A stretch of DNA of 64,000 nt. It comes from Cetorhinus maximus. Taxonomy: Eukaryota. The translations under genes and the position numbers were made by a program. The notes beneath the pieces are model-generated. The model saw only the letters and a list, made by a program, of their open reading frames with translations. It did no database searches and was not told the origin of the DNA. The DNA is taken from NCBI RefSeq assembly GCF_964194155.1, contig NC_135894.1, positions 16,616,001 to 16,680,000 of the forward strand, written 5' to 3'. Positions 751 to 63,400 of this stretch are shown one piece after another (the stretch's first letter is position 1; each line of letters starts with the position of its first letter).

Positions 751-1676
751 AGGAGAATCACAGAAATTGAGAGAAGATTTAATGTCACAATTGGACTGGA
801 TTCGGAATCAATGAGCCAAATTCTAAATTTGTTGATGATAACCGAATTGTGTGGGGTGGTGAAAGAGAATCAATATGGAGGACAGCTGCAACAAATTACA
901 GGAGGACATGACTCAACTTGCAGAATGGGCAAATAATTGGCAAATGAATTCCAACACAGATAAATTTGAGGTAGTACACATTGGTAGGAAGAATAGGAGA
1001 GGTCACTTACTACTTGAAAGGTGGAAGTCAAGGTGAGGTAGAGGAACAAAGGGATCACCGAGTACAAATACACCAATCACTAATAGGTTAGCAAGGCCAT
1101 AAAAAAAGCAAATCAAGCACTAGGCTTAACTTCTAGAGGGACAGACTTGAAAAGTAGGGAAGTTATGTTAAACTTGCATCAAACCTTTGTTAGGCCACAC
1201 TTCAGAGTACTTGTGCTGTTCTGATCACCATATTATAATGAGGATAGAGACACACTGGAGAGGGTGCAGAGAAGGTTTACAAGGGCGATACTCGAAATCC
1301 ATGGGTGTACATCAGGAAAGGACTGACAGGTTGAGTCTTCTCTGGAAAGAAGGCTGAGGGGTAACCTAATGGAGGTTTTTAAAATGATGAAAGGTTTTGA
1401 TGGAGTGGATACAGAGAGAATGTTTCCTCTTGAGGGGAAGAGCATAACTAGAGGCCATCAATATAAGATCGTTACCAAGAAACCCACTAGGGAGTTCAGA
1501 AGAAATTTATTTATCCAGAGAATGGTAAGAATGTGGAACTTGCTACCACAGGGAGTGGTTGAAGTGAATAGTACAGATGCATTTAAGGAGAAGCTAGACA
1601 AGCATACGGAGTAAAAGGAATATTTGGTAGTACAGAACTTGAGTATTGCTGAAAAAAAAAGAGACGTGTCTAGACA

Positions 1677-1710
1677 TGTCTAAGCTTTTCATCTTGCACT
1701 CATCAGGGCA
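1677..1710 (-). ncRNA. Hammerhead ribozyme motif, slightly degenerate inverted copy
   Basis: Minus strand TGCC-CTGATGA-GT-GCAAG-AT-GAAA-AGCT-TA-GACA. One stem I mismatch and a G-U pair in stem II. Confidence 0.65.
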
Positions 1711-1750
1711 CTCGCAAGAATACTAATATTAGGGGAAAGAACAACTTATA

Positions 1751-1853
1751 GGGCAGAATTTTACGGCCCCGTTTTGGTAAAATGCAGGGAGACATTATAA
1801 ATCCCATTGACAACAACGGAAACGTAAAATCCTGCTGTTGTAAAATTCTGCCC
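1751..1853. mobile_element. 103-bp PIF/Harbinger-type MITE
   Basis: Perfect 14-bp TIRs GGGCAGAATTTTAC / GTAAAATTCTGCCC with 3-bp flanks ATA/ACA. Removing it restores collinearity of the two PLE terminal repeats. Confidence 0.85.
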
Positions 1854-2443
1854 ACACTGTACGTGAAGAGAGTGATGATTGGTTGACATTTGTATGATAG
1901 GCAAAATGTCTTTTTGCCTTGACGGCAGCATCCTGTTAGTGGTGAATACCTCTCGTGTTGCTATTGAATAGTAGCAGCATGAAACAGCTAGCTTCATCTG
2001 TTGCTCGAATTTTTGACATACCTTTTGCTCCGCGATCGGACAATATTTGCTAAATAACCCTCAGTGTGCTAAGAATTACGCTGACAACCAATTTAAGATT
2101 GTCAGTTGGGCTCGTAGTGTGGTGCAGTTGTGTGTCCTGGAGCAACACATATTAATACACAGGGCCCTGTTCTTTGCAGACAGAAAGAACATGTACACAC
2201 ATTGTGCCTGTTTCAGCTAAACAAAATAAGTGACAGCCATTCACTGACTCATTCCTCAGGGTAATGCCTTAACCAATCAGGGTCAAGCTACCTGGTTTAA
2301 ATTTCAAACAATGCTTGGTAGTTAACTGTCAGTCACCATCACAGATGCATTTTCCATGGCAATGCCACTTGCCAACCAATCAGCACTCTCTTCACATTCA
2401 GTATAAATTGTTGGTTTCCCCTTATATTGGTATTCTTGCAAAG

Positions 2444-2476
2444 TGTCCTGATGAGTGCAGACGAAAAGCTTAGACA
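2444..2476 (+). ncRNA. Minimal type I hammerhead ribozyme motif in PLE terminal repeat
   Basis: TGTC-CTGATGA-GT-GCAG-AC-GAAA-AGCT-TA-GACA. Stem I is TGTC/GACA, the CUGAUGA and GAAA cores are intact, stem II is 2 bp, stem III is palindromic (AAGCTT), and the cleavage triplet is UUA. Confidence 0.75.
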
Positions 2477-2956
2477 AGTCTCTTTTTTTTAGAAAAGGGA
2501 ACAGAGTTACAATGGTAGATTTAGATGAGGAAAGATGAAGGAGGCTCAAGTGCAGCTTAAACACCAGCATGGGCTGGTTGGACTGAATGGCCTGTTTCTG
2601 TGCTGTAAACCCTAAGTAATTCTTAGATGTATTGAGTATTTGAACCCAATATTTTACATGGCAGCCACATACTGAACCAGCCACAGGATCACGTGGACAT
2701 GGGTCAAAATGTCATTTCTCTCCGTCAAGAGTTTGTCTACAATGTATATGGTGATCGTCCTCAGTGCCCTAATTACCTTCAATGTGCTCTTTTGTATAGA
2801 ATTTGTACCAGCAGATTCTTCAACAGTCCTTTTTGAAATACAATTTAATAGCATAGTATGTTAAGAAAAAGTAAAGGAGGAGGCAAAAAAGGAAACAGGT
2901 AAGAATTGAGAGACAAGAAACAATGGTCACTGCAGAAGACATTTAATTTTTCATAC

Positions 2957-3030
2957 CTCTTCTTAGCTTCTTCATACTGCCAACTAAGTCGAACTCTGTC
3001 TGCCAGTTTGGACCTTCCGCCACATGAAAA
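2957..3030 (-). CDS. WWC3: WWC3 coding exon (74 nt)
   Basis: FSCGGRSKLADRVRLSWQYEEAKK(R), compared with recalled WWC3 LVDRVRLNWQYEEARKR. Acceptor TTTCCCTTTCACAG|, donor |GTATGA. Phase 0 to 2. The gene continues beyond both window ends. Confidence 0.9.
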
Positions 3031-10629: not shown

Positions 10630-11972
10630 TTTCCTCCCCCTTTAGTTTTTTGCAATTATCTTTACAAAGCACATTTGAACATCCGAAAAACATTTATACA
10701 ATTTCAGGTGATTATAAATCTAGTCTTTGAGGTGCTCTTTGTACACGGCTAGAGCGGTGTAGCTCCACCACTGGAGGTTCCTGAACAGGATTGACAGGAT
10801 CTAGAAGCTGCACTATGAGACATATGATCGGAACTGGGCAGTTCAGAATTTGGCAACTCTTCTGAAACATCTGGAATGTCTGTTCTAGGTCAATCACACA
10901 CCTCAGAAGTCAATGGGTTCAACGTTATCAAAGGTTGATCAGTTAATTGTTGGAACGTCTCTCTAGCACGGATATGATCCACGTGCTTACGGATATTCTA
11001 TCTCCCACTTGTACCTGGAAAGATAACGCACCAGTCTCCGAAACAATGGCTCCCAAAGCCAAACAGGGTCCACTGCTGAAATTTCACACATATACCGTGT
11101 CACCTACACTGAATGCGCGAGCTTTACTGTGTATGTAATGGGTAAACTTCTGATTATTCTGGTTCCGCGCTACCTTCCCCTCTAAATTCGGGAACAGCAA
11201 GTGTAAACGTGCACGCAGACGCCATTTCATTAATAACTCCGATGGTGTTGAACCAGTCATCGAATGTGGTGTGGTATGATAAGTTAAGATAAACTGAGAG
11301 CCGAGATTCCAGGGTACCTTCCGATAGCTTTTTCATACCAGACTTAAAAGTTTGCGCAGCCCTCTCAGCTAGGCCATTCAATGAGGGATGCCAAGGAGCT
11401 GTCTTTATACGGCGGATTCCTTTCAGATCCATAAATTTCTGAAACACGGTGCTGGTAAAGACTGTACCATTATCAGAAACGACGATTTCATGCTGAAACA
11501 GTGACGTAGCTTCTCGATAGTTGCGTTTGATGTTGGGAATTTGACTTCGTACACATCCATCCATTTTGAATGTGCGTCTACAATTAACAAAAACATGGTA
11601 CCTAAGAATGGACCTACATAACAGACATGTAGTCGAACCCAGGGTCGACCAGGCCATTCCCAGGGATACAGTGGAGCTGAAACATGCAATTTCCGTTGTT
11701 GCTGACAGTGGGAGACAGTGCTTGACCATGGTTTCGATGTCACTGTCAATGCCTGGCCACCAGACATAGCTTCGCACAAGCATTTTCAATCTCTGATATG
11801 CCTGGATGCGCACTGTGGAGTTCTGTCAAGAGTGGCTCTCTACCTTGTGGTGGGGCCACAACTCTCGACCCCCACAACAAAATTCCGTCTTGATGGCTTA
11901 ATTCCGTGTTTCTGATACGGAGCGGTCTCAATTCTTCAGATCCAGGTGAGTTTGGCCAACCTTGCAAATAAA

Positions 11973-12370
11973 GGGCAGGATTTTTACCTCGACGGGTGGG
12001 CCCGGGAGTGGCTGCAAAACCAACTGCCACCTGATATTGGGCCCCGACCGCGATCTCACGCTGACTGGCCAATTAACGGCCAGTGAGAGCTCCTTGAAGT
12101 CACAGGGCTGCCTCAGGGAGCTGAAGATTTTTAGCACTAAAAATAAAGAATGGAAAAATAAGGAAAACATGTCCCCTCATGTGACAGAGTCACGTGTTAA
12201 TCATGAGCTTTAAAAGTTTTTATTTTTTTTTTAAATCACTGGTTGAAACCGCTTCTCGCCCATAGATGAGGTTTCGCAAAAAATGCAAAGGCCACTTGGC
12301 CTATTCAGCCTGCCCGCCAGCTGAACATTTCAACAGGCAGTGAACAATTAAATTCAATTAAATTCAATTC
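11973..12370. mobile_element. Truncated Harbinger-type MITE inserted in the Gypsy element
   Basis: Starts GGGCAGGATTTTTAC. Shares acatgtcccctcatgtg and gatgaggtttc...tgcaaaggcc blocks with the MITE at 43930-44588, in opposite orientation. Confidence 0.7.
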
Positions 12371-14102
12371 AATATCGTATCTCTGTTCGTTCAATTCCAA
12401 ATTTGTTTCACACACACAGGCAAAGGATCTAAGAAATTCAATAATAGCACTAATTCTTGTGGAATGCGAGTATTTACAATATTATCTGATTTTAGGCGAA
12501 ATATCTCGGACCAGTCGAGTTTTATCTTCTGTATCCAATAAAAGACTGGGTCCCTCCCCTTTTATGATTATCACAGGCAGTTGGTCTGTCTGTCCCTTGT
12601 AACAGACTGGGGCAGTGGCAATGCCCTTGACTTGAATAGATTCTCCCATATAACGTCTTAACTTGGTGGTTGTCCGCTCCAGGTTTATTGGCTGTCTTCC
12701 TTCATTAAGATGCCTGAAAGTTTGCTCTCCAACCACCATGGTTGAGGCACCAGTATCCGCTTCTATACGCAGTGGCTTCTCATTTACTTGTACTGTCACC
12801 ATAACAGGCTCAGTTTTCACAGCCGTACACATCAGTATCAGCAGCTTCAGCCTTTGCTGTACCTGTTAACTCCATCATGTTTGTTTGCTGTCTTGTAAGT
12901 TGTTTCATCTTTGTTCGGCATTGCCTAACCATGTGTCCCTTCTAATGACAATAATGACATTCTGCCGCTCTGAATTTACAGGTATCTGCTCCGTGGTCAC
13001 CTCCACATTGATAGCAATTTTATCTTGAAGTTGTTGATGAAGTGCTTCTGTTAGGCTTCTTAATGTTTCTCATAGTGAACATTGAATTGCGCTTTAATTC
13101 TGCAGGTCCGGTTTTCACACCACACTCGGAGGCAGGTTCCCACCCCACATGGAGTACGGCCCCATTATCCATGTGTTGCAAAGCCTGTGAGCCTCTCGCA
13201 GCATTTTCCATGGCGAGGGAGATTTCTAGGGGGTGCTTAAAGACGATATCGACTTCGGCAAGCAAGTGGCGCTGTATGGCATCGGCCTTGACTCCACACG
13301 CCAGTCGGTCCCTCAGCATATTGGTTAATGAGTCCCCAAAGCCGCAGTATTCCGTTAACTGCTTGAGGTTGGCCATTATATGTTGTGATGGACTCTCCCG
13401 GGGCACAAACTCTTGAATTCAATTCAAAGCGTTGCATTATCACAGATGGCTTTGGCTGGAAGGGTGCTTTCACTAGGTCCATTAACTCCCTTGTATGACC
13501 TGGAGTTAGGCGTGCTCGGTGCAGTCAGGTTGTATGTTTTACTGCCGCACACTCAAGAGGATCGCTTTCCACTTTCCTTTGGCGGTTATTTCACTTGCTA
13601 CAACGTAAAATCCGAGGCGCTCAACATACTGGCTCAGGACGTGCGCACATGTGCGTGTGCCCTTTCTCATCTAATAGCTCATGCTGGTCTGGGTAAAGCC
13701 ACCTACTTGATCAATCTAGCCACAACCAATCCATCGCAAGGAGATGGGGGAAAGGGTAGGAGAATTAAAAAAGGAACCGAAAGGTAGAGATCAGGGAGAC
13801 ATTACCTGAAAAGAACCATTTGCAACCGAGGGGATAAAATTACACAACATCCGAAGTGTGATTAAAGGAAAATGAGGCAGTGCTCTGTTCAATGGAATAA
13901 GTTGATCTTGAGCCAGATTCAGAGCATTCTGCTAACAAACCCCTGCCCCTTGGGTTAGAATCACCATCACTACAGTCATTCACTCCAAAGAAAAATAACC
14001 CACACATGGTTTTATTCCTTTCCAATTTAGAATGGAAAACAGAACATGTTGCCGCTGCACTTGTACCAAATTTGAGTATTGTGGAGGCAAAGACCAAAGA
14101 AA

Positions 14103-34779: not shown

Positions 34780-35088
34780 CTCCAACCCTACAATCCTTTG
34801 AGATCACTGCACTCCTCTAATTCTGGTCTCTTCCACATCCCCAATTTTCATCGCTCCACCAGTAATACCCACATCTTTAGCGAGCAAAGCCTCAAATTCT
34901 AGAAGTTCCTTCCTAAATCTCTCCTCCTCTCAAACTCACTCCCCTCCTTTAAGCTGATGCTTAAAACATCCCTCTTTGATCAAGCTTTGTGGTCACCAGT
35001 CCTAATATCTTTTATTGTTGTTCGGGGTCAAATTTTGTCTCAGAAAACTCCTGAGAGGTACCTTGGACATTTTTATTATGTTAAAGTC
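34780..35088 (+). mobile_element. L2-type LINE 3' end
   Basis: tcctttaagctgatgcttaaaacatccctctttgatcaagctttgtggtcacc...ggggtcaaattttg...ccttggacatttttattatgttaaag. Confidence 0.7.
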
Positions 35089-35091
35089 ACT

Positions 35092-36660
35092 GGGCAGGGT
35101 TTTCCCTTTGTCGGGCGGGCACGGTGGGCTGGCCCGGGAGTAGCCACGAAATGGACCACCACCCGCGATTGGGTCCGACCACGATTTCACTCTGGGGGGC
35201 CTAATTGTGAAATGAGGCTCCACACTGGCCGGGAAGGGCCCTGCAGGGACGGGGGCCTGTCAGCCACCCGGTCCGATGGTGACCCGGTGGCTGGTTTACA
35301 AGCGGCCCAGGCAGCCCCTGGGAGTCTGCCATGGAGGACATTCCCTGAGCCGGCACGATGGACCTGAGTGCAGCTGGATACGGCAGGCGGGAGGGCAGGT
35401 CGGGTGGGCATTTGGCCCTCTGCTTTTCCGATGAGTGCCTCTCCGTCCTCCTGGAGGGGGCGGCTGCCAAGAGGGGCACCCCTGTCCCCAGAGATGGGAC
35501 GAGGAGGCCACCGCACATCACCAAGAGGGCATGGGAGGAGGTGGCAGTGCTGGACAGCAGCTGTGATGCGGTGCGGCGCTCCTGGGTGCAGTGCCGGAAG
35601 TGCTTCAATGACCTGCTGCGCTCAGGAAGGGCGAGTACCGTGTTGGCATGGGTCAGTGTGCAGAAGTGTTAAGGTGTGGCCGTCCCCCATGGACCTCAGG
35701 GGTGCTACAGTCTGAGTGCCAACTGTCAATCACGCCAAAGTTGGTCAAGGGGGTGAGCCCTGGCTGCTTGGACTGAGTGCCTTGCGGCTCTAGGGCCACA
35801 ACTCGGATGTGCCCTGCGAGGTGTTCCTCAGTTGGGGTTGGCCAGGCTGCAAAGGCGTTGCAGGTACAGAGTGGACTAATCAATGCTCCTCTGTTGTTTC
35901 AGCAGAAGATGGCCCACAACAATATAGAAAGATTGTGGACCGGCGGAGGCCCCGCTAGCCTCCTAATCCTTTCAAGGTATCAGCAAGATGCCATGGAGCT
36001 TGAGAACCGGCACACCCTACATGCAACCTGGCGCGGAGAGGTGGGGGTGCCAGACGAAGGTAAGAGTGCAGTGCACAGAGGTGAGAGTTTTTGATTGTGC
36101 AATCCTTCTAGTGAAGCCTCTTCATTGATGTGAGCCTCAAACCTGGAGTTCACATTGAGCATTGAAAGACGATGGCAGATCTCACGAAGGCACCCGGCTG
36201 ACCCGCTGGTGCCTTGATGGCCACGTGTGCAGTTGATTGCACCCTGGACATGGGGGAACCCAGCAATCGCTGCGAAGCCTTTGGTTCACTCATCCTGGCT
36301 GGCCTCGTCCGTACGGTAAAGAATAAAGGTCAGTACCCGCCTGAACAGAGCTTGACGCAACTGTGGACAGCTGATTAGGAGACTCCACACAGATCCCCAA
36401 ACTGAGCACTGGAAAGAGCCAGAGGAACAGAAGTTGAGGGCCACTGTGACCTTCAGAGCCACTGACATGGGTGTGTCCACCCACACAGTCAGAGCTGATC
36501 TCAGGCCCGATCATCTGACAGATGGAGGTCAGTGATTCCCTCGAGAGACAGAGCCTTCTTTGGCATTGCACCTTGGACATATTGAGGTAGCTGCATCACC
36601 GCCTGTAAACCCTGGCAGCAGGATATTAGCGTCTTCTACAGCCCCTTCTGCCTCAGACTA
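35092..36660 (+). mobile_element. Harbinger transposon left arm with spliced Myb/SANT-like DNA-binding gene (transposase absent)
   Basis: TIR-like start GGGCAGGGTTTTCC. ORF 35358-35630 reads FSDECLSVLLE...AWEEVA...RRSWVQCRKCFNDLLRSGR (Myb/SANT trihelix). A second exon follows tttcag at ~35903 (KMAHNNIERLWTGGGP...) and ends at G|GTAAG ~36060. Confidence 0.75.
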
Positions 36661-50790: not shown

Positions 50791-52602
50791 GATTTCATCA
50801 GTTCAGTTCTGGTTATGCACCAGTGATAAAAGCAGTGTAGCATTTTAGTGCACTGATTCTCATGTAAATGTTAAATGGGATTAGGGGCTTCCCAACGAAA
50901 GTGAGAAAGAAATTTCTGAACAGCAGGCACATAACTCTGGGCCATTGGTAAAATCCTCAGGAGTGTCTAGCCCTCTATATTCCTTGAGAGCTAAACAAAT
51001 TAAATGTAGTCTATAAAATAGGAGCACAACCAGTCAGTCTGCACATAATAGCATCAACAAAATAGATCCGCAATAGGCAGGAATGAACCACTTGACGGAA
51101 AATAGTTTGGAAAGAAAAGTCATGTATTATAAAATGATGGGAAGATGAGATTGTGTTCAGGTAGACAGCTTCTTTCAACTAAATAGAGAGGGCTGGGGTG
51201 ATGGGGGAAGAAGGGGTGTGTCACAATCTCAAAGTAATGTAAAGGACTAAACAAGGTGAATGTTTGGAGGTGGCTCTTTTCCGAGTGAATAATGGAGCTG
51301 TAGAAAAGGCTGCTGGCTCATGTGGCAATTTGCTGATTTCTTCAAACGAGATGAGAAGTGGTTTCTGGTTGGTGGGAAGGTCAGGGTAGTACCTCATGAC
51401 ATTAAATCAGGGTCAGAGTGGTCTATTAGAACAGATTTGATTACTGAAGGAATCTGTCAGGTTTCTCACCCACCAGTTGGCCAGGGTGCCTCTGTTTTTT
51501 GTTCCTCCCAGGTGATTAGATAGCACCAGGTGGGGCGGGGTGTGTCTGTAGTATGATGCACAAAGTATCGTGGTGCTGTGGGACAGGCTGGGTGGATGAT
51601 ATAGTCTTTTTCTGTCCAGCATTGTTTGCATCTCCACTGCCTTCTCCTTCTGACTCATTGCCAAAGTAGTGTGTGTGGTATAGGATGGAAGGGGGGGGAA
51701 AAACAGCTTAAAAACGAAGAGACTGTGATGGTTCTATACGCCGCACCTTCAAACCATAGTTTTTCCAGCTGATGTGGCAAAACTAGGGCAACAGATCCAA
51801 GTCAGATTCCGTCTGAAGCCGGGGTGGGGGGAGAAAGAGAGAGAGAGAAATTGGCAAAATGGCCCACAAGTGTAAAATAGATTCTTTGAACCAAACTCCT
51901 CCCAAATTTAAAATCAAAGCCACTGTGTGCTGCTCGTGCTGGTCTCCCAACACCTCCACATTCCTGGTGAATTAAACGACTAGTATGGGGACCTTCCTAA
52001 GTAGAAGCAACAGCCAGGTGGTTGTGCAGGACAGCCTCAATGTTGGCTTTAGCAATTACAGTACGCAAATGGGTTACCTGATGGAAAATTCTTTAGAAAC
52101 AAAGGCCTTGTGTTATTGGCATCAAAATGACTACATTGTTACCTTATTAGTGCTAATCTGAACTTGCTCAACTGAGGTCATGTTTCTGTTTATGTACCAA
52201 ACCTCAACGTTCCAGCCAGCTGCTGGCTGCATCTGGGATGAGTAATTCCAATTCCTCGTAGCTCCCCAGAGTGAAATAATAAGTTAAGGAATACCAACAG
52301 ATAAGAGTGTGTGGTTGGGAGGGTGGGGAGGTGGGGAAAAAGAGGGAGTATACCAATTTTCCAACCTGCAATCTATTAATTAAATCTCAAACTCCGAAGC
52401 ACTGGCTGTTGTGAATTTACGTTTAGGCCGTGCTACACAGGGCAGACGATTTGTCTTAAAGTTTGAACAAATTGCATCGGCTTTGGATTTTGATCACATT
52501 TGAAATCGATTCGGCTTAGCGCAAAAATAAAATGCCAGTATGAGCTACAGGTGCCCACTGACCACCTGCTCGAGTCCGAAGGAACTTCACGTAGGTACTT
52601 AC

Positions 52603-52806
52603 AACTGACGTAAGAGATGCTGTCATTCTCGCACAGGTCATGCAGCTGCTGATATTCCTCCTGGGCAAGTGCCAAACGTTGCTTTTTCACCTGGTAGATC
52701 TCTTTCTTGGCATTAAGAGCCTCCTGGGCCACCACCAAATACTCTTTCAGCATACGTTCCTGTTCCCGTCGCCATTGCGCCCTGGGGTCTTCAATCTGGG
52801 TGACCT
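52603..52806 (-). CDS. WWC3: WWC3 (WWC/KIBRA family) coding exon: end of second WW domain and start of coiled coil
   Basis: Translates (K)[67 protein letters not shown]. Acceptor ...AATGTAG|, donor |GTAAGT. 204 nt, phase 1 to 1. Matches the recalled WWC3 motif [21 protein letters not shown] better than the WWC1 equivalent. Confidence 0.92.
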
Positions 52807-53434
52807 CTACATTAATGAGAATTTTATTAGTACAGAAATCCGGACACTGTGCTACAATTAAAGTTTCGGTACAATGCAGCTAATCATTGTGATATTTTCT
52901 CCCCTTCTTTCAAGGCTGCGTTTCACCACACAATCCTGTGAACGATCGATTAGTCAGCAGTAAGTCATTTACAAAGGGAAGCATTGATCATTTACAAAAA
53001 TTGCATACTTTTAGTCATCTCACATTTTTCAGAGATGATGAGCTTTAAAAAACACGCATACTGCTCGACTTTATTGGGAGTCACTCAAGGACAAAAGTTT
53101 CAAGAAATCAGACTGCATAAATAAATAAGTCTAGCTTCCTTGTACATTTCAGTTCTGTGATCAAACCAATCGTTGCTCACTCCTTCACCATCACTGGGTC
53201 AAAACCCTGGAACTCCCCACACAACAGCCCTGTGGCAGTACCTTCACCACATGTACAGCAATGGTTTACTTTCTTGAGGACAGTTAGGGATGGGCAATAA
53301 ATGCAAGCCTAATGTAATGGCTCAAGGGGTTGAATGGCCCATTCCTGTTCCTAGGTTCCTAAATGCCACCAACGAGCAAGAAAGTTATACTTCAACGAAT
53401 AGCAAACTCACAATCAACCACCTTGGTGAAAAAT

Positions 53435-58975: not shown

Positions 58976-60133
58976 ATGGCAGTCTGGTGATCTCGCTGTC
59001 TGCTTCATTGTCTTCTCTCCTGCCTATAAGCAGAGAAGAATGCGACGGAGGCGCCTGGCTCATCAAAGGGAGGAGCAGAACCTTGAAGGCCAAGGGGCAG
59101 CACAGCCTCCTCCACATGCAGAGGATGAGCCCTACAGAGCCGTCATTCGTAGGCGCATTGCTAGACCAGGGTCTATAGATGGCATGTGTGCACCAGCAGA
59201 TGAGCATGAACCACTGTCAACGATGCCTATGCATATCAAAGGAACAGGTCACGCACATATGCCACCTTCTGCAGGGCGTGGCACCTCGGGAACTCAGGGG
59301 GCTTTCACTGCCAGTGGTAGTTAAAGTTACTGCCGCATTCAATTTCTCAGGAAGTGGGTCCTTCTAGGGCACCACTGGGGACCTTTGCGGGATCTCACAA
59401 GCCTCCACCCACAAATGTATCCAGGAGGTCACAGACACCCTTTTTGCCGAGGTGCACAATTATGTCAATTTCGACAGAGATCAGACAAGTCAGGATACAA
59501 GAGTGCTGGGCTTTGTTCAGGTTTCCAGATTCCCACAGGTGCAGGGTGCCATCGACTGCACCCACATAGCTCTTAAATCTCCGTGGCAACAAGCAGTCCA
59601 GTATGTGAACTGCAAAGGCTCTCAATGTTCAGCTGATCTGCAACCATAACAAGCATGTGCAAGACACCCCGGAATTGTCCACGACTCATACACCCTCAGG
59701 CCTCGGGGACAAGGCTACCCACAACGGATGTGGTTGATGACGTTCTTGTGGCAGCCTCAGACTCCCGGTGAGAGAAAGTACAATGCGGCTCATACCACAA
59801 CCCGGAATTTGGTTGAGCACACCATCCTAAAACTGAGGTTCCGATGCCTGGACAGATCTAGTGGAGCACTCCAGTACATTCTCCAAATGCATCATAGTGG
59901 CTTACTGCACACTACACAACCTGGCGATGCAAAGGGGGGAGGATCTGGATGATGAGGAGATGCAAGAGCTGCATGTCTCCTCCAATGAGGAGGACGTCGA
60001 AGGGGATGAGGGTGATGAGGTTCTGGAAGGCGAGGGTGCGGGTGATGAGGCTATTGCACTAGCCAGACAAGGCAGGCATAACCGTGAGGCCCTCACTGCT
60101 GCAAGATTCCAGGAGGATGATGACAAGATGTAG
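58976..60133 (+). pseudogene. Harbinger (HARBI1-like) DDE transposase pseudogene
   Basis: LPVVVKVTAAFNFSGSGSF*GTTGDLCGISQ, FPQVQGAIDCTHIAL, GDKATH-like remnant, YNAAHTTTRNLVEHTI.LK.RFRCLD.SSGALQY, IIVAYCTLHNLA and an acidic tail. Stops and frameshifts are present. Confidence 0.88.
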
Positions 60134-60479: not shown

Positions 60480-63400
60480 TTAAGTACAAGTGATTAACAC
60501 CCGTGCCCACATTGTGCAAATAAATCTTCTTGACCTTTCTAACCCTGCCGCTAAGTCTTGGTGCTCCCCTGACATCCACAGCGGAGGTGGAAGTGGCCTG
60601 CTGACTGCTACACCTTGTTGTCTATGATGACATTGGCAGGCGTCCTCTGGAGGGCCGAGACCAGGAGGGCACCAGCCTGCTTTCAGGGCCCTGCTGTGTG
60701 GCAGTGGCACCTTCCTCAACCTGTGGAGCTGGTGCTGCTGAGGCCACAGGAAGAGGGAATACAGATGGGCCTGACACTCACGGAGACCCCTGGGTGGATG
60801 GCACCAGGGTGTGCACCTGCTGATCCTCCTTCCTATGGGTGCTTGAGGGCCCTTGGCTGACTCCTTGAGAGGAAGGGGTAGCTGAACTCAAGATGCCCCA
60901 CACCCCTCTCACATTGACAATGATGGATGCCAGCAATTGCCTCAGTGATGGAGTTGAGCCTGCACAGCAGTGCAGGACCAATGTCCTGAACCAAGGTCTC
61001 CAAAACAACTGTCATCCTACCTGTGTTGACCTTGGTACATTGGCATGCCGGAGCTATCATCTCAAACTGAAGGCGGACAGACTTCTCCATTGTGCCTTGC
61101 AATCTAAGGAGTGTAGCGGACAACCCTTCCCGAGGTTCCCAAACTTGCCTTTGTAGCTCCAGCAACTGAGGTATGACAGAGTCCAGAGGCTCCTATTCTG
61201 ACTAGGACTCAACAGATTTCTGGGCTCCAGCAGTCCTCCAAGTGCCGGAAACCTGGGAAGTCCCTGTCTCCACCTGCTGTTGATCAGACAGTGTGATGTG
61301 CTCACCAGGGGATTGTGATCCCAAGGCTACTCTACAGCTAGGTCCCACCAACATGTGTGTCTCAGCGCTGGTGGAGGGTGTGGGTGAGCACTGTGACATG
61401 TCTTCAATTATGGTGTCATCAGATTCTTTTTCCGAGGTGTCTTCGGGGCTCGAGTAGCGGACCTGGCTCTTGGACCCCCTCGGCTGCTTCCCAGATGTGT
61501 CTGCAAAAGCAAGGAGAGATAATTAGTGCATGGCATGGGACTGTGGAACAGGAGAATTCACCCACAGCATGGTTGTCTGATGGACGTTTCACTGCTGCGT
61601 CTTCACTTGATTGAGCACCGCCGACCTCACCGTCAGCACTGGAACGGTCCAGATCCTCGTCAGCCAGCTGGATGACTCTTATTTTCAAAGTCTGTGAGGA
61701 CCGTGACATTGGGCATTCTTCCACCAGTCTGCGACCTCTCCCTTTTGTGGCGTGCCAGCTTGTCCTGCATGAATACAGTGGAGAGTATGTAAGCAGGACA
61801 CCTGCCAGGCCAGGTGAGAAAGATGCCTGGCATGTGTATTTTTAAATATATAAAAAGGAAGAGAGAGACTAAAGTGAACATAGGCCCCTTACAGAATGAG
61901 GCTGAGGAAAAAGTAATGGGGAACCAAGAAATGGCTCTAATAGCATTCCAAAAATACTAAATAATCAAGATGCAAAAGGTGGGGAGGAAATAAATTCAAT
62001 AACCATCACTAGAGAAAAAGTACTAGGGAAACTAATGGGGCTAAAAGCCAATAAGTCCCCTGGACCTGATGGGTTACATCCTAGGATATTAAGGAAGTAG
62101 CTATAGAGATAGTGGATGCACTGGTAGTAATCTTCCAAGAATCCTTAGATTTTGGAAAAGTCCCGGAGGATTGGAAAACTGCCAATGTAACACCCTTATT
62201 CAGAAAGGGAGACAAAAAACAGGTAACTATAGACCAATTGGGTGAACATCTGTCATTGGGAAGATGTAAGAGGCTATTATAAAGGGTGTAATAGCAGAGC
62301 ATTTAGAATTACATAATCTAATCAAGCAGAGTCAGCATGGCTTCATGAAGGGGATATCATGCCTGACAAATTTATTAGAATTCTTTTGAGGAGGTAACAA
62401 GCAGGATAGATAAAGGGGAACCAGCAGATGTAATATATTTGGGTTTCCAAAAGGCGTTCGATAAGGTGCCGCATGTAAGGGTACTTAATAAGATAAGAGC
62501 CCATGGTGTTTCGGGTAGTATATTAGCATGGATAGAGGATTGGCTAACTAATAGAAGACAGAGAGTTGGGATGGCAACCTGTAACTAGTGGAGTGTCACA
62601 GGGATCAGTGCTGGGGCCTCAATTCTTTACAATATATATTAATGACTTGGATGAGAGAAGTGAATGTACTATCGCCATATTTGCAGATGATACAAAAATA
62701 GATGGGAAGGATGAGACAAGGAGTCTGCAGAGGGATATAGGCAGGTTAAGTGAGTGGGCAAAAAAGTGGTACATGGAATATAATGTGAGGAAATGTGAGG
62801 TTATGCACTTTGGCAGGAAGAATAAAGCAACTCAATATTATTTAAATGGAGAAAGACTGCAGAAGGCTGCAGCACAGAGGGATTTGGGAGTCCTTGTGCA
62901 TAAATCCCAAAAAGCTAACATACAAGTTCAACAGGTAATAGGGAAGGCGAATGGAATGTTGGCCTTTATTTCAAAGGAAATGGAGTATATAAATAGGGAA
63001 GTCTTGCTAAAACTATACAATGCACTAGTTAGGCCACACCTAGAATACTGTGGACAGTTTTGGTCCCCTTATCTACAGGCATTGGAGGCAGTTCAGAGAA
63101 GGTTCACTAGATTGATTCTGGGTATGGAGGGATTTTCTTATGAGGAGACGTTGAGTTCATTGGGCCTGTACTCATTGGAGTTTAGAAGAATGAGATGCAA
63201 CCTTATTGAAACATATAAGATTCTTAGGGGGTTTGACAGGGTAGATGCTGAGAGGTTGTTTCCCCTTGTGGGAGAGTCTGGGGCCAGAGGGCGTAATCTC
63301 AGATTAAGGGGTCACCATTTTAAACAGAGTTGAGGAGGAATTTCTTCTCTCAGAGGGTAGTTAATCTGTGGAATTCTTTACCACAGAGGGCTGTAGAAGC

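What the first reader, a model, noticed from the sequence alone, without database searches (positions are those of the whole stretch)
1623..2490. Fold-back Penelope-like element with a hammerhead ribozyme motif in each inverted terminus, inside a WWC3 intron
Seen: both ends are inverted copies, and each holds a type I hammerhead consensus. The plus copy (2444-2476) is TGTC-CTGATGA-GT-GCAG-AC-GAAA-AGCT-TA-GACA; the minus copy is at 1677-1710. The interior is an RT-EN linker on the minus strand fused at ~2028 to a GIY-YIG C-terminus on the plus strand. Established: PLE pseudo-LTRs carry minimal hammerheads whose palindromic stem III favours dimeric self-cleavage. Inference: the minus copy lies on the WWC3 pre-mRNA strand ~1.25 kb downstream of the donor at 2957, so it could cleave the intron. 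However, the fold-back pairs it with its own antisense, which could act as a built-in silencer. The P-V-L-C-R-Q-K ending suggests a Naiad-like PLE clade, which I recall mainly from invertebrates; this is unverified.
Basis: partly seen in the sequence, partly recalled or inferred. Interest (0 to 1): 0.72.

Follow-up and report, generated by a model that had tools for sequence, protein, structure and literature searches.

The report
Decayed Penelope fold-back with knotted hammerheads
This mirror-image insertion in an intron is an old, mutated scrap of a very common Penelope-type jumping gene, laid down in a back-to-back pattern already known for that class; its two self-cutting RNA motifs are damaged and likely idle here, although related elements show by matched base changes that the motif is predicted to fold with an extra knot.

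Summary
In detail: 1623-2490 is two head-to-head, 5'-truncated pieces of one high-copy Penelope-like (PLE) family in an intron of a WWC-family gene (WWC3 by synteny), each ending in a type I hammerhead. The interpretation mostly fails. The family has RT before a C-terminal GIY-YIG and carries hammerheads, so it is not Naiad; motifs point to Penelope/Poseidon. Fold-backs are routine: 17 of 39 sibling copies have an abutting inverted piece, as published for PLEs. Both arms are 6-7% diverged, like the average copy. The pre-mRNA-strand hammerhead has G10.1-U11.1 and a helix I mismatch, has no same-strand partner in the 94 kb searched, and is predicted to be paired with its antisense arm (P about 0.93). 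A 103-nt MITE later landed in that arm. One correction adds interest: 'helix II' is one G-C pair whose loop pairs with a strand 5' of helix I, a pseudoknot with compensatory changes across six PLE families. Pseudoknotted hammerheads are known from microbes; I did not find one for animal PLEs, but could not read Lunse 2017. This scan noted both the fold-backs and the knot before on other DNA. No cleavage was tested.

The parts
1613..1622 (+). Candidate target-site duplication, left copy (imperfect, about 10 nt)
   Evidence: sequence; flanks on both sides align through to related repeats in 3 places at 69-72%
1623..1650 (-). PLE 'tail' extension, present on this end only
   Evidence: matches the 3' extension of sibling copies; one-sided 30-40 bp tail described in PMC8557442 and PMC3846280
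1651..1888 (-). Left arm: 3' part of the pseudo-LTR, interrupted by the MITE
   Evidence: blastn to natural copies L022/L026 at 83-91%
1662..1681 (.). 10-nt tandem duplication just 3' of the minus hammerhead, absent from the 52 sibling termini
1677..1719 (-). Hammerhead on the pre-mRNA strand: pseudoknot strand 1719-1713 (intact), helix I 1710-1707/1680-1677 (one C-A mismatch), core from 1706, G10.1-U11.1 instead of G-C, palindromic helix III, predicted cut after 1681
1751..1853 (.). MITE with 14-nt terminal inverted repeats and a 3-nt target duplication (ATA/ACA), a shortened member of a 117-nt family; Harbinger-type by these features (label recalled)
   Evidence: I7; 1,228 first-look candidates, 40 scored; perfect 3-nt duplications in 7 of 8 parsed copies of 11
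1887..2028 (-). RT-EN linker fragment, joined to the pseudo-LTR by a jump of about 530 nt at a 2-nt microhomology
   Evidence: junction found only here among 40 scored of 351 candidates
2029..2490 (+). Right arm: GIY-YIG C-terminus (frameshifted), 3' region and pseudo-LTR ending in the T run
   Evidence: central junction found only here among 40 scored of 237 candidates
2434..2476 (+). Hammerhead antisense to the gene: pseudoknot strand 2434-2440, helix I 2444-2447/2473-2476 intact, core from 2448, G10.1-C11.1 intact, 1-nt deletion in the loop that bulges the pseudoknot, predicted cut after 2472
2493..2503 (+). Candidate target-site duplication, right copy
2957..3030 (-). WWC-family exon upstream of the intron (host gene, WWC3 by synteny)
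   Evidence: next exon hits Pfam PF25802 WWC1-like hairpin, E 1.4e-24; CLC channel exons about 152 kb downstream on the same strand

Best explanation
This is a decayed fold-back insertion of a high-copy Penelope-like retrotransposon with a C-terminal endonuclease, and its two hammerheads are the family's ordinary pseudo-LTR motifs, likely inactive at this site. Shown: two 5'-truncated family pieces sit head to head, with a tail on one end, a candidate target duplication, an internal jump and a later MITE; both arms have drifted as far as the average copy. Inferred: one retrotransposition event made both arms by template switching or self-priming into an older LINE-like repeat in the intron, before the split from a related species. 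In the WWC3 pre-mRNA the antisense arm is transcribed first and is predicted to pair with the sense hammerhead, which has also lost G10.1-C11.1 and one helix I pair; the intron is likely spliced uncut. In the once-active element the ribozyme would fold as a type I hammerhead whose helix II is a single G-C pair closing a 7-nt loop that pairs with a strand 5' of helix I (covariation shown, folding and cleavage untested), and would cut as a dimer through the palindromic helix III.
For: Family size and age: 6,234 first-look candidates, best 39 other copies only 87-92% identical; every long copy read is broken. Architecture: 17 of 39 have an inverted piece within 60 nt of the 5' end, 10 of 39 with the hammerhead-bearing end, 2 of 39 with an internal jump; same pattern in PMC8557442 and PMC3846280 (passages). 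Decay: plus arm 12/199, minus arm 7/101 from the family majority, family mean 6.7%; 28 of 52 copies lost the C11.1-G12 CpG; all elements intact in 5 of 39 main, 0 of 13 inverted, 0 of 2 window copies. Sequestration: mean pairing probability 0.93 over 1710-1677, arm duplex -109 versus -4.3 kcal/mol for the helix III dimer helix. Pseudoknot: 5-6 Watson-Crick pairs ending 8-11 nt before C3 in 6 of 6 short-loop families (shuffle p 0.001-0.027) and 0 of 12 long-helix-II controls (p 0.35-1.0); 4 of 7 knot pairs and 4 of 4 helix I pairs change on both sides. Age: contigs of another organism bridge the central junction in three studies.
Against: Core positions are slightly more conserved than flanks across copies (18 of 513 versus 158 of 2,975; Fisher p 0.10; base-adjusted expectation 29.4, P 0.017), and both window copies keep all catalytic bases. 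The minus copy keeps a perfect pseudoknot strand. The effect of G10.1-U11.1 has not been measured; PMC3088659 notes that even a U-U pair there can support cleavage. No RNA evidence was obtained either way. The clade call rests on motifs, not on a tree. Pseudoknot counts come from few, related, hand-picked rows.
Confidence: 0.88

Rival explanations
1. The minus-strand hammerhead cleaves the WWC3 intron during transcription and affects splicing or output of the gene.
For: It lies on the pre-mRNA strand 1.25 kb after the donor; catalytic bases, helix III palindrome and pseudoknot strand are intact; the insertion appears to be shared with another species.
Against: G10.1-U11.1 and a C-A mismatch in a 4-bp helix I; no second same-strand copy in 94 kb; antisense arm transcribed first and predicted to pair with it; single minimal PLE hammerheads showed no cleavage in vitro (PMC4209133); no read ends at the cut site for the anole element (PMC11167929).
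Confidence: 0.03
2. The fold-back was kept by selection as a built-in silencer that protects the host transcript from the ribozyme.
For: The duplex is predicted to block the motif; none of 13 inverted sibling termini is fully intact.
Against: Inverted arms arise routinely at insertion (17 of 39); the arms differ at 13 of 119 columns with no sign of co-evolution, and a MITE and a duplication were tolerated inside the duplex. Blocking is a by-product.
Confidence: 0.04
3. The element belongs to the Naiad clade.
Against: RT precedes the endonuclease in family copies and in 30 of 30 homologues with a recognisable GIY-YIG among 120; DKG not DKA; no insertion in the fingers against Fig. S1 of PMC8557442; hammerheads present. 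The ending P-x-L-C-x-Q-K occurs in 37 of 120 of these RT homologues; the string LCRQKE is absent from that paper's supplement.
Confidence: 0.01
4. The fold-back is an assembly artefact.
For: Inverted repeats are known to trouble assemblies (PMC8557442).
Against: The arms differ by 11% and by a MITE; contigs of a run of the same organism match across 1700-1777 and 2460-2524 with no difference; contigs of another organism bridge 2028/2029.
Confidence: 0.01

Closest known systems
Complex insertions of endonuclease-bearing Penelope-like elements (Pen2a/Pen2_Av, PMC3846280; general scheme in PMC8557442 Fig. 2)
   Same: Inverted 5'-truncated copy at the 5' end, head-to-head geometry, one-sided tail, short target duplication, microhomology-type internal deletion.
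   Different: Here only short 3' pieces remain, the arms start about 330 nt apart in the family sequence, and a MITE interrupts one arm.
Minimal type I hammerheads of metazoan PLEs (Cervera and de la Pena 2014, PMC4209133)
   Same: In the pseudo-LTR, 4-5 bp helix I, palindromic positions 15.2-16.2, G10.1-C11.1; pairs on opposite strands 100-700 bp apart were already reported.
   Different: That paper describes a long helix II (7-8 bp) with an extra base before it and no pseudoknot in the parts read; this family has a one-pair helix II and a pseudoknot.
Pseudoknot-stabilised hammerheads (Perreault 2011, PMC3088659) and the PK hammerhead structure (Zhan 2024, PMC11300833, PDB 8YDC)
   Same: G10.1-C11.1 closes a 6-7 nt loop that pairs with an upstream strand, replacing helix II.
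   Different: No helix IV and no A-minor linker (only 2-3 nt between knot strand and helix I); helix III is a dimer-type palindrome; host is an animal retrotransposon.
Conserved intronic hammerheads of amniotes (RECK and C10orf118 introns; passages in PMC3088659, PMC6155905)
   Same: Hammerhead motif on the sense strand of an intron.
   Different: Those are single, conserved and shown active; this one is one of thousands of copies, mutated, duplexed and untested.

Membership tests
Endonuclease-bearing Penelope-like element | RT followed by GIY-YIG endonuclease in one frame | tested here: met
   L022 RT frame (Pfam RVT_1 E 0.0018, below cut-off) followed by the EN frame; homologues P0001/P0005/P0118 hit RVT_1 and GIY-YIG; window pieces align to them
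Endonuclease-bearing Penelope-like element | Pseudo-LTR with hammerhead, optional tail, inverted 5' copy | tested here: met
Penelope/Poseidon clade | CCHH motif in the endonuclease and no CX2-5CxxC zinc finger in the linker | tested here: met
   C-x-C between GIY and YIG plus two H in family copies; 0 of 30 homologues have CxxC in the 60 aa upstream; compared with Fig. S2 of PMC8557442
Penelope/Poseidon clade | RT phylogeny groups with Penelope/Poseidon | not tested
   no clade-labelled reference sequences were held; by eye the closest row in Fig. S2 is Perere_Smed
Naiad/Chlamys | N-terminal GIY-YIG endonuclease | tested here: not met
Naiad/Chlamys | DKA motif and insertion in the fingers domain | tested here: not met
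   DKG in family copies L046 and L051; RT3-RT4 spacing as in Poseidon
Naiad/Chlamys | No canonical hammerhead | tested here: not met
   hammerhead in every terminus aligned
Neptune / Nematis | CX2-5CxxC zinc finger in the RT-EN linker | tested here: not met
Type I hammerhead ribozyme | Conserved core CUGANGA, GAAA, UH | tested here: met
   both window copies
Type I hammerhead ribozyme | Helix I supported by covariation | tested here: met
   4 of 4 pairs change on both sides across families; not within this family; minus copy has a mismatch
Type I hammerhead ribozyme | G10.1-C11.1 pair | tested here: inconclusive
   met in the plus copy and in the family majority; G-U in the minus copy
Type I hammerhead ribozyme | Self-cleavage | not testable with these tools
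   no assay; no usable RNA reads
PK hammerhead (Zhan 2024) | Loop closed by G10.1-C11.1 pairs with an upstream strand | tested here: met
PK hammerhead (Zhan 2024) | Helix IV stem-loop and A-minor linker before helix I | tested here: not met
   knot strand ends 8-11 nt before C3, leaving no room beside helix I versus the crystal construct

The most novel reading that the evidence does not exclude
One lineage of animal Penelope-like elements carries a hammerhead that is both pseudoknot-stabilised (one-pair helix II, 7-pair knot, no helix IV) and dimer-dependent (palindromic helix III), an architecture not described for these elements. If the knot makes it a fast ribozyme once dimerised, thousands of intronic copies would have been real hazards to host transcripts at insertion, and fold-back copies like this one would have survived preferentially because they mask themselves.
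Probability: 0.3. Interest if true: 0.55.

Novelty: new variant of a known kind. Interest (0 to 1): 0.28.

Why it matters
The locus itself is ordinary and gives no reason to think WWC3 is regulated by a ribozyme. The family-level knot matters modestly: PLE hammerheads are described as minimal and slow, lacking the usual tertiary contacts (PMC4209133, PMC6155905), and their role is open (PMC11167929). A knot strand just outside the usual descriptor would be left off test constructs and explains why Rfam misses these motifs; it gives a clean disrupt-and-rescue experiment.

Tried and rejected
Rfam scans found no hammerhead family in the window stretch or in six family and relative loci. Sequencing-run search: no RNA holder listed, so expression and RNA ends were not examined. 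Laying contigs was swamped by paralogous copies; the state of the two hammerheads in related organisms could not be read, and no listed piece of organism B bridged a locus-specific junction (tables are cut, no conclusion). The idea that this exact fold-back is a mobile unit was rejected: both internal junctions were found only here among 40 scored hits each. The 530-nt jump is not a spliced intron (no GT-AG at the joint, 2-nt microhomology). A second subfamily shares the knot unchanged and adds only one double change in helix I. The upstream CpG first used as a neutral control lies inside the knot strand, so it is not a control. Pfam did not score the window's own short fragments. The protein atlas gave no answer. 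No RT tree was built for lack of labelled references. Lunse et al. 2017 (RNA Biol 14:1499) is not held.

Full report
Setting. The window is G000:C16:16616001-16680000 of a 4.0-Gb genome; that it is a cartilaginous fish is my inference, not a tool result. The exon at 2957-3030 (minus) ends in a GT donor and the next exon starts 3,392 nt below the window, in phase, so the intron is about 6.35 kb. That exon hits Pfam PF25802, WWC1-like hairpin, E 1.4e-24. CLC channel exons lie about 152 kb further on, same strand; WWC3 next to CLCN4 is recalled synteny, so WWC3 is likely but not directly tested.

Anatomy. Against natural family copies the right arm, 2029-2490 plus, is the last 460 nt of the element: endonuclease C-terminus (61% over 38 aa to P0001), 3' region and pseudo-LTR. 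The left arm reads on the minus strand from 2028: 140 nt of RT-EN linker, a jump of about 530 nt at a 2-nt microhomology, the pseudo-LTR end, and a tail to 1623 that the right arm lacks. A 103-nt MITE with a 3-nt target duplication sits in the left pseudo-LTR and a 10-nt duplication follows the minus hammerhead. An imperfect duplication of about 10 nt flanks the whole, inside an older repeat whose two halves align through (3 places, 69-72%); that repeat looks like a CR1-type LINE end (recalled label).

Family. The right arm has 6,234 first-look candidates; 40 were scored and the best 39 other copies are 87-92% identical. These favour complete copies. With 5-8 kb of upstream flank, 17 of 39 have an inverted family piece within 60 nt of their 5' end, 10 of 39 include the hammerhead-bearing end, and 2 of 39 have an internal jump by a strict rule. 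This is the published pattern: PMC8557442 (passages; supplement parts 54-55 of 59), PMC3846280 (passages), and opposite-strand hammerhead pairs 100-700 bp apart in PMC4209133 (parts 1-2 of 4). Both junctions of this insertion were found only here. Contigs from three studies of another organism bridge 2028/2029 with 4 differences in 73-74 nt, so the insertion likely predates that split; a flank contig of that organism has 17 differences and 8 gaps over 521 nt.

Clade. Family copies run RT, linker, GIY-YIG. Among 120 listed homologues, 30 have a recognisable GIY-YIG, all after RT and none with CxxC in the 60 aa before it; 37 end in P-x-L-C-x-Q-K. DKG is present and the fingers insertion absent. 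Naiad is excluded; Penelope/Poseidon is the motif-based call, without a tree.

Hammerheads in the family. In 52 sibling termini the majority motif has an intact core, a 4-bp helix I and the palindrome in helix III. Copies decay: 28 of 52 lost the C11.1-G12 CpG; 5 of 39 main and 0 of 13 inverted termini keep every element. Within the family there are 3 paired double changes over 11 pairs, as expected of dead copies. Against my reading, non-CpG core positions differ a little less than flanks (18 of 513 versus 158 of 2,975; p 0.10; base-adjusted P 0.017), which may reflect variation among parent elements.

The knot. A metagenome scan with alignment A1 gave 78 loci of related PLEs. A strict descriptor found 14 hits in them against 0.2 per shuffled single-strand pass, 8 of them 124-298 nt after the ORF end on the sense strand. 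A short-loop pattern gave 20 hits: 18 fall into five families, and 2 (L174, L186) have no upstream complement and may be chance. Taking one copy per family plus the window's family, 6 of 6 have a 5-6 bp Watson-Crick match between the loop and a strand ending 8-11 nt before C3 (shuffle p 0.001-0.027), against 0 of 12 long-helix-II hammerheads. Mutated copies within those families (for example L123, L126, L177) break it and were not counted. On alignment A3 (six rows; L121, L155 and the window copies left out because of register problems; two rows from one family; one row cut short) 92.5% of cells pair, and 4 of 7 knot pairs and 4 of 4 helix I pairs change on both sides; slid registers give 22-44% paired. 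The shuffle control there ignores relatedness and is not a probability. So helix II is a single G10.1-C11.1 pair closing a loop used in a pseudoknot, as in the PK hammerhead (PMC11300833, parts 1-2 of 6 and passages), but without helix IV. Pseudoknots in all hammerhead types, with one- or two-pair helix II, were shown to be needed for fast cleavage in PMC3088659 (passages). I did not find the knot described for animal PLEs in searches, or in word searches of PMC6466107, PMC6155905 and PMC7229834 (no occurrence) and PMC6765202 and PMC10085705 (passages). Lunse et al. 2017, the paper most likely to contain it, was seen only as a reference entry; one supplement file of PMC4209133 was not searched and figures are not visible. 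I saw the knot, before one search showed that this scan had noted it on other DNA.

The two window copies. Minus (pre-mRNA strand): core, knot and helix III intact; G10.1-U11.1 and a helix I mismatch. Plus (antisense): core, helix I and G-C intact; a 1-nt loop deletion bulges the knot. The arms are 6.0% and 6.9% from the family majority, mean 6.7%, and differ from each other at 13 of 119 columns. Polymerase meets the antisense arm first; the sense motif is predicted to be paired with it at 0.93 on average (whole-element fold z -15.2). No other copy lies on the minus strand in 94 kb. Single minimal PLE hammerheads did not cleave in vitro, and no read ends were found at the site of the anole element, whose ribozyme did cleave in vitro (PMC11167929, passages). 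A 2026 preprint (10.64898/2026.07.22.740005, parts 1-2 of 5; supplements not seen) reports about 43% of frog retrozyme copies in introns, with depletion after normalising.

Verdict. A real but ordinary, decayed Penelope/Poseidon-type fold-back in a WWC3 intron; intron cleavage, a selected silencer and Naiad affinity are not supported. The family's pseudoknotted, dimer-type hammerhead is the part worth a bench test.

Noticed in passing
L124:296-340; L142:1319-1365 and 1385-1420: A hairpin resembling the histone 3' UTR stem-loop (Rfam Histone3, 33.1 bits, cut-off 34, E 2.7e-6; others weaker) follows the hammerhead in two related PLE families. It is absent from the window's family, although the second L142 hairpin is followed by a tail much like this family's.
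   Followed up: partly
L125, L126, L128, L129, L133, L139, L143, L151, L171, L177: All ten loci of this related family have U at hammerhead position 3 opposite G8 instead of C3, with helix I and the knot otherwise kept.
   Followed up: no
window 1751-1853; L110-L120: 117-nt MITE family with GGGC-starting inverted ends and 3-nt target duplications; 1,228 first-look candidates.
   Followed up: partly
L089-L108: Second subfamily of the same PLE (about 71% identical to the first in the 3' region, 6,036 candidates) with a 5-bp helix I and mostly C at the cleavage position.
   Followed up: partly
window 52436-52879 (-): Another probable WWC3 exon lies in this open frame; no Pfam hit for the piece tested.
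   Followed up: no
window 59368-60130 (+), 34903-35712, 11157-13418 (-), 62548-63330 (+): Broken frames that look like Harbinger-type nuclease and Myb-like genes, a gypsy-type pol, and CR1/L2-type reverse transcriptase (labels recalled from the translations).
   Followed up: no
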